Notes under the pieces: model-generated
What the model saw: the letters and a program-made list of their open reading frames with translations, nothing else
Database searches by the model: none
Told to the model about the DNA's origin: nothing
Assembly (NCBI RefSeq): GCF_055900595.2
Contig: NZ_CM148325.1
Length of the DNA: 64,000 bases
Strand: one strand, 5' to 3'
Program-made: the position numbers and the translations under genes
In this document: positions 60,796-61,347 of the stretch, in pieces
Layout: each line of letters starts with the position of its first letter
Position numbering within the stretch: position 1 is the stretch's first letter

Positions 60796-60829
60796 TAAAA
60801 ATAAAAACAAAAACCCGCCGAAGCGGGTT
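60796..60829 (-). terminator. Intrinsic terminator downstream of the hok-family gene
   Basis: Minus-strand hairpin AACCCGCTTCGGCGGGTT followed by a long T-run. Confidence 0.55.
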
Positions 60830-60897
60830 AAGTGTGGGTGCATTGAGGATGCCTGACTCATCAGAGGTGGCGAGGGATTTCTCCCTCGCCTGGTCTC

Positions 60898-61053
60898 TTA
60901 CTCCTCAGGTTCGTAAGCTGTGAAGACAGCGACCTCCGTCTGGCCGGTTCGGATTCGTACCTCGCAGAGGTCTTTCCTCGTTACCAGTGCCGTCACAATG
61001 ACGGTAATACAGATGACGATCAGGGCGACTAACATCGCCTTTTGCTGCTTCAT
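60898..61053 (-). CDS. Hok/Gef-family type I toxin (with in-frame upstream Mok-like extension to 61110)
   Basis: MKQQKAMLVALIVICITVIVTALVTRKDLCEVRIRTGQTEVAVFTAYEPEE closely matches recalled HokC/Gef; the 70-aa ORF 60898..61110 is the Mok-like reading frame. Confidence 0.85.
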   Translation of the reverse strand: MKQQKAMLVALIVICITVIVTALVTRKDLCEVRIRTGQTEVAVFTAYEPEE

Positions 61054-61347
61054 AGCCTGCTTCTCCTTGCCTTTCGGCACGTAAGAGGCTAACCTAGATT
61101 TGCCGTTCATAGATTGAGCCTCAGATTAATGTTAAGCGTCTTGCCGGACGCGTAATGTTAACTGGGGCTTTTCTCTATCTGCCTTTTGGGGTTCATGCCT
61201 GAGACAGATAGCCTCAAGCACCCGCTGCAATTCTACTTAACTCTCCTTTTCCCGCAAACCGTTTTTATCCCCAGCGGCAAATCGAATACACCACCAGCGC
61301 CACCGCCATCGCAATTCCTACCGTTGTGAATGCTTCAGGCCAGCTCA

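What the first reader, a model, noticed from the sequence alone, without database searches (positions are those of the whole stretch)
60796..61160. Hok/Gef-family type I toxin with Mok-like leader in the prophage nin region
The 51-aa toxin is almost identical in pattern to HokC/Gef and sits within a 70-aa in-frame Mok-like ORF, followed by a strong intrinsic terminator. A Sok-type antisense RNA would be expected on the plus strand overlapping the mok start region (roughly 61060-61150), but I cannot place its promoter with confidence. The arrangement next to a DUF968 gene mirrors the Qin-type prophage of K-12.
Basis: partly seen in the sequence, partly recalled or inferred. Interest (0 to 1): 0.4.

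Follow-up and report, generated by a model that had tools for sequence, protein, structure and literature searches.

The report
Intact prophage hok/mok/sok toxin–antitoxin cassette
This is an ordinary, already catalogued hok/mok/sok RNA-controlled toxin–antitoxin cassette in a lambda-like E. coli prophage: the complete form of the gene that E. coli K-12 keeps only as the truncated hokD.

Summary
On the minus strand there is a 51-aa Hok toxin (60898-61053; Pfam HOK_GEF E=1.5e-23). It matches K-12 HokD at 49/51 residues, HokW at 45/51 and HokC at 43/51. It lies inside an in-frame 70-aa Mok ORF (to 61110) and is followed by an intrinsic terminator (60829-60812). Rfam's hok-leader model (RF01794) matches 61223-61048 at 112 bits against a cut-off of 59. 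The predicted 418-nt mRNA folds with its 5' end (tac, 61223-61212) paired to a 3' element (fbi, 60848-60836).

The antisense gene can now be placed by homology to the annotated sokW of phage 933W. Its promoter is TTGCCT (61067-61072), 17 nt, TAACCT (61090-61095), and the RNA is 61102-61172 on the plus strand. This promoter is identical to the sokW promoter whose mutation abolished antitoxin activity (PMC8621323).

So this is not a relic like K-12 hokD, where relE replaces the whole leader. The exact Hok protein occurs on at least 999 public contigs and the cassette in hundreds of viral contigs. Expression was not tested. The finding is already known and of low interest.

The parts
61230..61258 (-). 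Inferred hok/mok promoter: -10 TAGAAT at 61235-61230, and a weak -35 (TTTGCG/TTGCGG) at about 61258-61252.
   Evidence: The -10 aligns with the TATAAT of K-12 hokC. Its T, A, A and T positions are invariant in 59 distinct homologues, although sequence upstream of about 61243 diverges. The consensus scan did not report it. The transcription start is inferred, not measured.
60806..61223 (-). Full-length hok/mok mRNA, about 418 nt, from the 5' GGGUGCUUGAGG to the terminator U-tract.
   Evidence: The Rfam RF01794 model starts at 61223 and the terminator is at 60829-60812. The fold is -168.9 kcal/mol with z=-6.85.
61212..61223 (-). tac (translational activator element), GGGUGCUUGAGG.
   Evidence: It pairs with 60848-60836 in the MFE structure. 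It is invariant in 59 homologues, and the helix is 99.7% paired. An R1-type locus shows the same 5'-3' pairing with a different sequence, GGCGCUU/AAGCGCC.
61164..61168 (-). ucb / anti-SD (GCCCC). It pairs with the mok SD in the closed form and with tac in the open form.
   Evidence: The closed pairing appears in the MFE structure. The open pairing appears in the Rfam covariance-model alignment.
61119..61122 (-). mok Shine-Dalgarno sequence, GAGG.
   Evidence: It lies 8 nt upstream of the ATG at 61110. GAGG is the mok SD motif in R1 (PMC9841398).
60898..61110 (-). mok ORF, 70 aa: a 19-codon in-frame extension plus Hok.
   Evidence: The ORF is listed. It is 60/70 identical to MokW and has the same architecture as MokC and an R1-type Mok. 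The exact sequence occurs on 548 contigs.
61085..61090 (-). dcb (AGCCUC), which pairs with the mok SD region in the open, translatable form.
   Evidence: Seen in the Rfam structure alignment and in the constrained fold.
60898..61053 (-). hok CDS, 51 aa. RefSeq names the identical protein HokD (WP_000813267.1).
   Evidence: Supported. GGAG lies at 61066-61063.
60912..60915 (-). TACG motif at the Tyr47 codon, with the A at 60914. This is the TadA A-to-I editing motif reported for hokC, hokD and hokE (Tyr to Cys).
   Evidence: The motif is in frame. Editing of K-12 hokD at the equivalent Tyr is reported in PMC5630033 and PMC12214031. Editing was not tested here.
60869..60890 (-). 3'-UTR stem-loop GGCGAGGGAG..CCCUCGCC. 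It would be the terminal hairpin of the 3'-processed mRNA.
   Evidence: This is helix 15, 99.6% paired, with A-U, G-U and G-C variants at one pair. Its role is inferred from R1 (PMC9841398).
60836..60848 (-). fbi (fold-back inhibitory element), CCUCAAUGCACCC.
   Evidence: It pairs with tac and is nearly invariant. Forcing the open tac/ucb pairing instead costs 12.9 kcal/mol in the full-length mRNA, but only 1.2 kcal/mol once the 3' 44 nt that include fbi are removed.
60803..60829 (-). Intrinsic terminator: 7-bp stem with a UUCG loop and a U-tract.
   Evidence: Found by the scan and shared with K-12 hokD.
61067..61095 (+). sok promoter: -35 TTGCCT (61067-61072), 17-nt spacer, -10 TAACCT (61090-61095).
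   Evidence: It is identical to the 933W sokW promoter region (A2 columns 150-200). The -10 is the heptamer changed by primer YO-421 in the 'pro-less' mutant, which lost antitoxin activity (PMC8621323). It is invariant in 59 homologues. It falls below the threshold of the consensus scan, which also misses the sokW promoter itself.
61102..61172 (+). Sok antisense RNA, about 71 nt, with ends inferred by homology.
   Evidence: The coordinates are transferred from the sokW annotation in AF125520 through alignment A2, and agree with the position of sokC in K-12. The fold has a single-stranded 5' tail of about 9 nt, a long hairpin and a U-rich tail, at -31.4 kcal/mol and z=-5.24.

Best explanation
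This is a structurally complete hok/mok/sok type I toxin-antitoxin cassette of the hokW/hokD type, carried in the nin region of a lambdoid prophage.

Proposed mechanism; every step is inferred from the R1 and hokW paradigms:
1. A weak promoter makes a stable mRNA of about 418 nt. Its 5' end (tac) is clamped to the 3' fbi element, and the mok ribosome-binding site is sequestered by ucb. The mRNA is therefore neither translated nor bound by Sok.
2. Slow 3' trimming removes fbi. The leader then refolds into tac/ucb and SDmok/dcb pairings.
3. mok is now translated, and hok translation is coupled to it.
4. Translation is blocked when the unstable Sok RNA of about 71 nt, made from its own promoter on the opposite strand, pairs across the mok start. 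This stops mok translation and triggers cleavage of the duplex.
5. When Sok synthesis stops, Hok (a 51-aa inner-membrane peptide) is made and depolarises the membrane.

Most likely role: it assists host lysis and phage release at prophage induction. This is the only role shown for a cassette with an identical sok promoter and leader in a lambdoid prophage (hokW-sokW of Sp5).

Shown here are the presence, integrity, conservation and folding capacity of every element. Expression, toxicity, neutralisation and biological role are inferred.
For: - Toxin identity: Pfam HOK_GEF E=1.5e-23, and 49/51 identical to K-12 HokD, 45/51 to HokW.
- The leader matches Rfam RF01794 end to end at 112.4 bits, against a gathering score of 59.
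- The leader, the sok promoter and the Sok hairpin are nearly identical to the annotated mokW/hokW/sokW of 933W: 91.9% over 444 nt, and identical from the sok -10 through the hok start.
- The tac-fbi pairing is the MFE structure, z=-6.85. The closed state is favoured by 12.9 kcal/mol in the full-length mRNA, but by only 1.2 kcal/mol after 44 nt are removed from the 3' end.
- Sok folds as a tail, a hairpin and a U-tail, z=-5.24.
- tac, fbi, both SDs and the sok promoter are invariant or nearly so in 59 distinct cassettes, while the flanks are mosaic.
- HokW toxicity, SokW antitoxin activity, its dependence on this promoter, the RecA-dependent loss of SokW and a two-fold higher phage yield were shown experimentally (PMC8621323).
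- The R1 mechanism is summarised in PMC9841398.
Against: - There are no expression data for this locus.
- Both promoters are weak by consensus and were not found by the scan. The same scan also misses the validated sokW promoter.
- The close homologues are too similar to give covariation support: only 3 pairs change on both sides, which 32 of 500 shuffles also reach.
- The truncated mRNA does not adopt the open form as its MFE structure.
- This copy has A at 60835 where 56 of 59 homologues have G, which loses one terminal tac-fbi pair.
- Chromosomal hok loci tested earlier did not mediate post-segregational killing (cited in bioRxiv 10.1101/2025.08.07.668861).
- The Sok 5' tail differs from SokW at 6 of its first 10 nt, and the 3' terminator differs from 933W. 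Functional equivalence is therefore by analogy only.
Confidence: 0.85

Rival explanations
1. It is an inactive relic, a decayed hok copy like most K-12 chromosomal hok loci. It would be transcribed little or not at all, with no working Sok control and no phenotype.
For: K-12 hokA, hokC, hokD and hokE are regarded as inactivated (PMC12214031; PMC5630033). The neighbouring rem gene is a pseudogene. The promoters are sub-consensus. One terminal tac-fbi pair is lost in this copy.
Against: Every element missing from K-12 hokD is present here: tac, ucb, the mok start, the sok promoter and the Sok RNA. There is no IS element and no frameshift, and the ORFs are intact. All regulatory motifs are invariant across 59 distinct cassettes. 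The regulatory half is identical to the functional hokW-sokW (PMC8621323).
Confidence: 0.07
2. The mechanism is the same, but the role is prophage stabilisation (post-segregational killing). Cells that excise or lose the prophage would lose short-lived Sok and be killed by Hok made from the stable mRNA.
For: This is the classical role of hok/sok on plasmid R1 (PMC8621323 introduction; PMC9841398). Phage records annotate homologues as 'phage maintenance protein'. The stable, locked mRNA architecture is conserved.
Against: Chromosomal hok loci that were tested did not give post-segregational killing. The only experiment on a prophage copy points instead to a role at induction. Nothing was tested here.
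Confidence: 0.25
3. The mechanism is the same, but the role is defence against superinfecting phages (abortive infection). Shut-off of host transcription by an incoming lytic phage would deplete Sok and release Hok.
For: [quoted passage not shown]
Against: The same preprint found no enrichment of hok near defence systems. The T4 effect was modest and needed a high copy number. Nothing was tested here.
Confidence: 0.15

Closest known systems
hokW / mokW / sokW of Stx2 phage 933W and Sakai prophage Sp5 (AF125520; Takada et al. 2021, PMC8621323)
   Same: - A 70-aa in-frame Mok and a 51-aa Hok (60/70 and 45/51 identical).
- The leader has the same tac, ucb, SDmok and dcb elements.
- The sok promoter and the Sok hairpin are identical.
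- The fbi element is the same.
- Both sit in a lambdoid prophage host.
- A conserved 27-codon ORF lies upstream in both.
   Different: - Here the cassette lies in the nin region between P and Q. In 933W it lies near the right end of the genome.
- mok codons 2-5, and therefore the Sok 5' tail, differ at 6 of the first 10 Sok nt.
- The Hok C-terminus is HokD-like (TAYEPEE against VDYESEK).
- This locus has a canonical terminator right after fbi. 933W diverges there, and the scan finds no terminator.
hokD (relF) of the K-12 Qin cryptic prophage
   Same: The Hok proteins are 49/51 identical. The 3' UTR, fbi and terminator are the same. So is the downstream neighbourhood rem - DUF968 (ydfU) - Q. 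RefSeq gives this protein the name HokD.
   Different: K-12 homology begins only about 20 nt upstream of the hok ATG. relE-relB sequence replaces tac, ucb, the mok start, the sok promoter and Sok. The window therefore carries the complete cassette, of which K-12 hokD is a truncated remnant.
hokC (gef) / mokC / sokC of E. coli K-12
   Same: The organisation is the same, with an in-frame 69-aa MokC and sokC annotated across the mok start. The tac sequence and the -10 position are the same.
   Different: Hok is 43/51 identical. The sokC hairpin is 18 nt shorter. The 3' UTR diverges, and IS186 lies next to the K-12 copy.
hok / mok / sok (parB) of plasmid R1 and related IncF plasmids
   Same: It is the mechanistic paradigm. 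It shares the in-frame 19-codon Mok extension, 5'-3' tac-fbi pairing as the MFE structure followed by a terminator hairpin, and ucb/SDmok sequestration.
   Different: Hok is only 23/51 identical. The tac/fbi sequences differ in a compensating way: GGCGCUU/AAGCGCC against GGGUGCUU/AA(U)GCACCC. That locus is plasmid-borne, and its proven role is plasmid maintenance.

Membership tests
[quoted passage not shown] | A toxin of about 50 aa with the Hok/Gef domain: an N-terminal hydrophobic helix, a conserved Cys, and a C-terminal Tyr or Cys. | tested here: met
   HOK_GEF E=1.5e-23, above the cut-off. PHROG 251 E=7e-33. Aligned with HokD, HokW and HokC. The NCBIfam Hok subfamily scored below its cut-off, 48.6 against 73 bits.
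[quoted passage not shown] | A mok reading frame with its own SD that starts upstream of hok and overlaps it. | tested here: met
   There is a 70-aa in-frame ORF with GAGG 8 nt upstream. MokW, MokC and an R1-type Mok have the same layout. Translational coupling itself cannot be tested here.
[quoted passage not shown] | A cis-encoded antisense Sok gene across the mok start, with a promoter, a single-stranded 5' tail and a terminator hairpin. | tested here: met
   The promoter is identical to the functional sokW promoter. Coordinates were transferred from the sokW and sokC annotations. The fold supports the architecture. No RNA was observed.
[quoted passage not shown] | A long-range tac-fbi pairing that locks the full-length mRNA. 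| tested here: met
   A 12-pair helix between 61223-61212 and 60848-60836 is in the MFE structure. It is 99.7% paired in 59 sequences but shows no covariation among them. A compensating sequence difference is seen against the R1-type locus.
[quoted passage not shown] | Alternative leader folds: closed (ucb/SDmok) and open (tac/ucb plus SDmok/dcb). | tested here: met
   The closed fold is in the MFE structure. The open fold fits the Rfam model at 112 bits. The energy gap is 12.9 kcal/mol in the full-length mRNA and 1.2 kcal/mol in the 3'-truncated form. This support is computational only.
[quoted passage not shown] | 3' processing of the mRNA, RNase III cleavage of the Sok-mRNA duplex, and Sok instability. 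| not testable with these tools
   This needs Northern blots or a rifampicin chase.
[quoted passage not shown] | Toxicity of Hok and its neutralisation by Sok. | not testable with these tools
   Shown for HokW/SokW (PMC8621323) and inferred here.
K-12-type hokD (relF) locus | A HokD protein and the rem - ydfU(DUF968) - Q downstream context. | tested here: met
   49/51 identity. The gene order is shown.
K-12-type hokD (relF) locus | hok fused downstream of relBE, lacking mok, sok and tac. | tested here: not met
   The window has the full leader where K-12 has relE. It is therefore the intact counterpart, not the K-12-type truncated locus.
hokW-sokW of 933W/Sp5 | The same leader, sok promoter and Sok hairpin. 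| tested here: met
   91.9% identity over 444 nt. The sequences are identical from the sok -10 to beyond the hok ATG.
hokW-sokW of 933W/Sp5 | The same Sok 5' tail, the same 3' end and the same position in the phage genome. | tested here: not met
   6 of the first 10 Sok nt differ. The terminator is present here and not found in 933W. The position is the nin region here and the right end in 933W.

The most novel reading that the evidence does not exclude
The near-identical cassettes fall into at least three alleles that differ almost only in mok codons 2-5, which encode the single-stranded 5' tail of Sok. Together with the median of two and up to eleven matching places per E. coli genome, this leaves open that the tail alleles are non-cross-reacting specificity groups. 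Such groups would let several prophage hok/sok copies be controlled independently, each reporting the transcriptional state of its own prophage. A conserved, unannotated 27-codon membrane-peptide ORF just upstream of the hok promoter, present in 35 of 84 cassettes including 933W, might be an optional fourth component.
Probability: 0.15. Interest if true: 0.35.

Novelty: already known. Interest (0 to 1): 0.1.

Why it matters
It matters little as a discovery. hok/sok is the textbook type I toxin-antitoxin system, prophage copies such as hokW-sokW have been characterised experimentally, and hok enrichment in prophages has been surveyed. The exact toxin sequence is on at least 999 public contigs under the name HokD.

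The practical value lies in annotation. RefSeq annotates only the 51-aa CDS as 'hokD' here, without mok, Sok or the regulatory RNA elements. The name also hides the fact that this copy is regulatorily complete, unlike K-12 hokD. For anyone studying this prophage, the cassette is a candidate modulator of lysis timing at induction.

Tried and rejected
- **Covariation test.** I tested the mRNA structure on 59 distinct close homologues from IMG/VR. At 93-98% identity they are uninformative: 3 pairs change on both sides, which 32 of 500 shuffles also reach. The helices are simply invariant.
- **Consensus promoter scan.** It finds neither the hok nor the sok promoter. I do not take this as evidence of absence, because it also misses the mutationally validated sokW promoter in 933W.
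- **Folding the 3'-truncated mRNA.** It did not give the open, translatable conformation as the MFE structure. It gave the 5' metastable hairpin instead. Only a constrained fold shows that the open state lies within 1.2 kcal/mol.
- **NCBIfam.** The Hok models scored below their curated cut-offs, so the 'HokD' name does not come from an HMM equivalog.
- **Weak Rfam hits.** Hits of the 3' UTR to isrK (26 bits against 50) and rsmX were dismissed as generic two-hairpin resemblance.
- **A recollection that proved wrong.** I recalled that R1 mok is out of frame with hok, which would have made the in-frame Mok here unusual. An R1-type IncFII locus has an in-frame 71-aa Mok, so I rejected that.
- **Source strain.** I first assumed the window was strain GF4, from a 100% match over 631 nt. 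The trpL-hok distance is 46.2 kb in the window and 25.5 kb in GF4, so the window comes from a different strain with a fuller prophage.

Full report
**What is there**

On the minus strand, an ORF of 70 codons runs from 61110 to 60898. Its last 51 codons begin at an internal ATG at 61053. The protein matches Pfam HOK_GEF at E=1.5e-23 and PHROG 251 'MokW-like host killing' at E=7e-33. The 51-aa product is MKQQKAMLVALIVICITVIVTALVTRKDLCEVRIRTGQTEVAVFTAYEPEE. It is 49/51 identical to K-12 HokD (RelF), 45/51 to HokW of phage 933W, 43/51 to K-12 HokC (Gef) and 23/51 to R1 Hok. A terminator hairpin with a U-run lies at 60829-60812.

**Extent of the locus**

The unit is larger than the reported 60796-61160. 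Rfam RF01794 is named 'sok', but as its alignment shows it models the hok-sense leader from the 5' end to the hok start. It matches 61223-61048 on the minus strand end to end, at 112.4 bits against a gathering score of 59 (E=5.8e-26). A -10 hexamer TAGAAT at 61235-61230 aligns with the TATAAT of K-12 hokC and is conserved in homologues. Among 80 related viral contigs, the conserved block is about 61243-60803 and the flanks are mosaic. So this is a self-contained cassette of about 440 bp.

**Comparison with known loci**

- *Phage 933W.* The 5' half is almost identical to the annotated mokW/hokW/sokW locus (AF125520).
- *K-12 hokD.* The 3' half, including fbi, the terminator and the downstream spacer, is almost identical to K-12 hokD. 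Homology with K-12 hokD starts only about 20 nt upstream of the hok ATG, and upstream of that K-12 has relE. The window thus carries the complete cassette, of which K-12 hokD is the truncated remnant. The literature describes K-12 hokD as inactivated by rearrangement, with loss of canonical components (PMC12214031).
- *Gene order.* The order hok - rem (here a pseudogene) - 92-aa ORF - DUF968 - RusA - Q matches K-12 Qin, which has hokD - rem - ydfU - ydfT. It also matches phage mEp460.
- *Position.* The locus lies between replication gene P and Q, which is the nin region.

**The antisense gene**

It can now be placed by homology.

- In 933W, sokW is annotated from 8 nt inside mokW to 62 nt upstream of it. 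sokC in K-12 sits in the same position. Transferred through alignment A2, Sok here is 61102-61172 on the plus strand.
- Its promoter is TTGCCT (61067-61072), a 17-nt spacer, then TAACCT (61090-61095), with the start 7 nt downstream.
- This stretch is identical in the window and in 933W (A2 columns 150-200). It is invariant in 59 distinct cassettes.
- The -10 is exactly the heptamer replaced by primer YO-421 in the 'pro-less' construct of Takada et al., which lost antitoxin activity.
- The predicted RNA has a single-stranded 5' tail of about 9 nt, one long hairpin and a U-rich tail, at -31.4 kcal/mol and z=-5.24.
- The consensus scan does not report this promoter. It does not report the validated sokW promoter either.

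**The mRNA switch**

- *Closed form.* The 419-nt stretch folded (61224-60806; mRNA about 418 nt from 61223) gives -168.9 kcal/mol, z=-6.85. Its 5' GGGUGCUUGAGG (tac) pairs with CCUCAAUGCACCC (fbi, 60848-60836), and the mok SD (GAGG, 61122-61119) pairs with GCCCC (ucb).
- *Open form.* The Rfam alignment gives the alternative fold: tac/ucb, the Sok-target hairpin and SDmok/dcb.
- *Energies.* In constrained folds the closed form is favoured by 12.9 kcal/mol in the full-length RNA. After the 3' 44 nt are removed, the gap is only 1.2 kcal/mol, and the MFE structure then shows the 5' hairpin that corresponds to the 'metastable' structure described for R1 (PMC9841398).
- *R1-type comparison.* An R1-type IncFII locus folds with the same 5'-3' clamp built from different, mutually compensating sequences, and it also has an in-frame 19-codon Mok extension.
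- *Limits.* Among the 59 close homologues the helices are 97.4% paired but essentially invariant, so they add no covariation evidence. All of this is computational consistency with the paradigm. It is not a demonstration.

**Function**

For hokW-sokW, Takada et al. showed the following:
- Hok is toxic, and Sok neutralises it from its own promoter.
- Neutralisation depends partly on RNase III and Hfq.
- SokW is lost and HokW accumulates in the inner membrane after mitomycin C, in a RecA-dependent way.
- Deleting the locus halves phage release.

The regulatory half here is identical to that locus. I therefore commit to the same mechanism, and to 'assists lysis at induction' as the most likely role. 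Prophage stabilisation and phage exclusion remain alternatives. The relic hypothesis is unlikely, at about 0.07, because nothing is missing or disrupted.

**Differences from hokW**

- mok codons 2-5, and so the Sok 5' tail, differ: GCCGUUCAUA here against GUUCAGCAUG in SokW.
- The Hok C-terminus is HokD-like.
- A canonical terminator is present here and not found in 933W.
- The cassette occupies a different position in the phage genome.
- This copy also has A instead of G at 60835, which costs one terminal tac-fbi pair.

**Status**

The exact Hok sequence is on at least 999 contigs under the name HokD, and the exact 70-aa Mok is on 548. Of 5426 complete E. coli genomes, 4942 have a match and 2246 have a place covering at least 80% of the 631-nt query. 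More than 590 viral-contig stretches encode a relative. A recent survey already reports that hok is enriched in prophages. The finding is correct but already known. Its only added value is annotation, since RefSeq lists just the hokD CDS here.

Noticed in passing
window 61265-61348 (-): There is an unannotated 27-codon ORF, MSWPEAFTTVGIAMAVALVVYSICRWG, that looks like a single transmembrane helix. It has a GGAGG SD, and its ATG overlaps the stop of the upstream 86-aa gene (TAATG). It lies immediately upstream of the hok promoter. The frame is intact in 32 of 34 homologous copies, including 933W, where the wider context differs. It accompanies only 35 of 84 hok cassettes. The exact sequence is absent from the protein collection, and there is no PHROG or NCBIfam hit.
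   Followed up: partly
window 61097-61107 (mok codons 2-5 / Sok 5' tail): Otherwise near-identical cassettes fall into three alleles here: AACGGCAAATC, TCTCACAAATG and CTGAACACATG (933W). The variation is concentrated in the part of Sok that is single-stranded. This may reflect diversification of specificity between the multiple hok/sok copies in one genome.
   Followed up: partly
window 60912-60915 (-), A at 60914: The Tyr47 codon of hok is TAC within a TACG motif. This is the TadA A-to-I editing motif reported to recode the equivalent Tyr to Cys in K-12 hokC, hokD and hokE (PMC5630033). The motif is conserved here.
   Followed up: partly
window 60430-60681 (-): The rem homologue just downstream of hok is a pseudogene in the identical GF4 sequence, because of an internal stop. 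Only a 57-aa N-terminal ORF remains.
   Followed up: no
window 23551-23739 (+): Rfam finds isrK (72.7 bits) immediately followed by a C4 antisense RNA (78.9 bits). In GF4 an ompW remnant and a frameshifted ORF6N (antirepressor-like) gene lie downstream of the trp operon, at the other end of the prophage, and the window's two RNAs also lie downstream of trpL (14797). Their position was not mapped onto GF4. The prophage appears to be inserted at ompW, the 'PPompW' type named in phage records.
   Followed up: no
window 57609-57762 (-): Two tRNA genes lie just downstream of the antiterminator Q gene. They are tRNA-Lys(TTT) and a CAT-anticodon tRNA that ARAGORN calls Met and PGAP calls Ile.
   Followed up: no
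whole window against NZ_CP172217.1: The 631-nt hok region is 100% identical to E. coli GF4, but the window is not collinear with that genome. trpL to hok is 46.2 kb in the window and 25.5 kb in GF4, whose prophage has truncated portal and tail genes. The best long match, strain Ch1, covers 89% of window 39001-64000.
   Followed up: partly
window 61048-61223 (-): Rfam family RF01794 is named 'sok antitoxin', yet it matches the hok-sense strand and spans the whole mRNA leader up to the hok start. A hit on a given strand therefore marks the hok mRNA leader, not the Sok RNA itself.
   Followed up: yes
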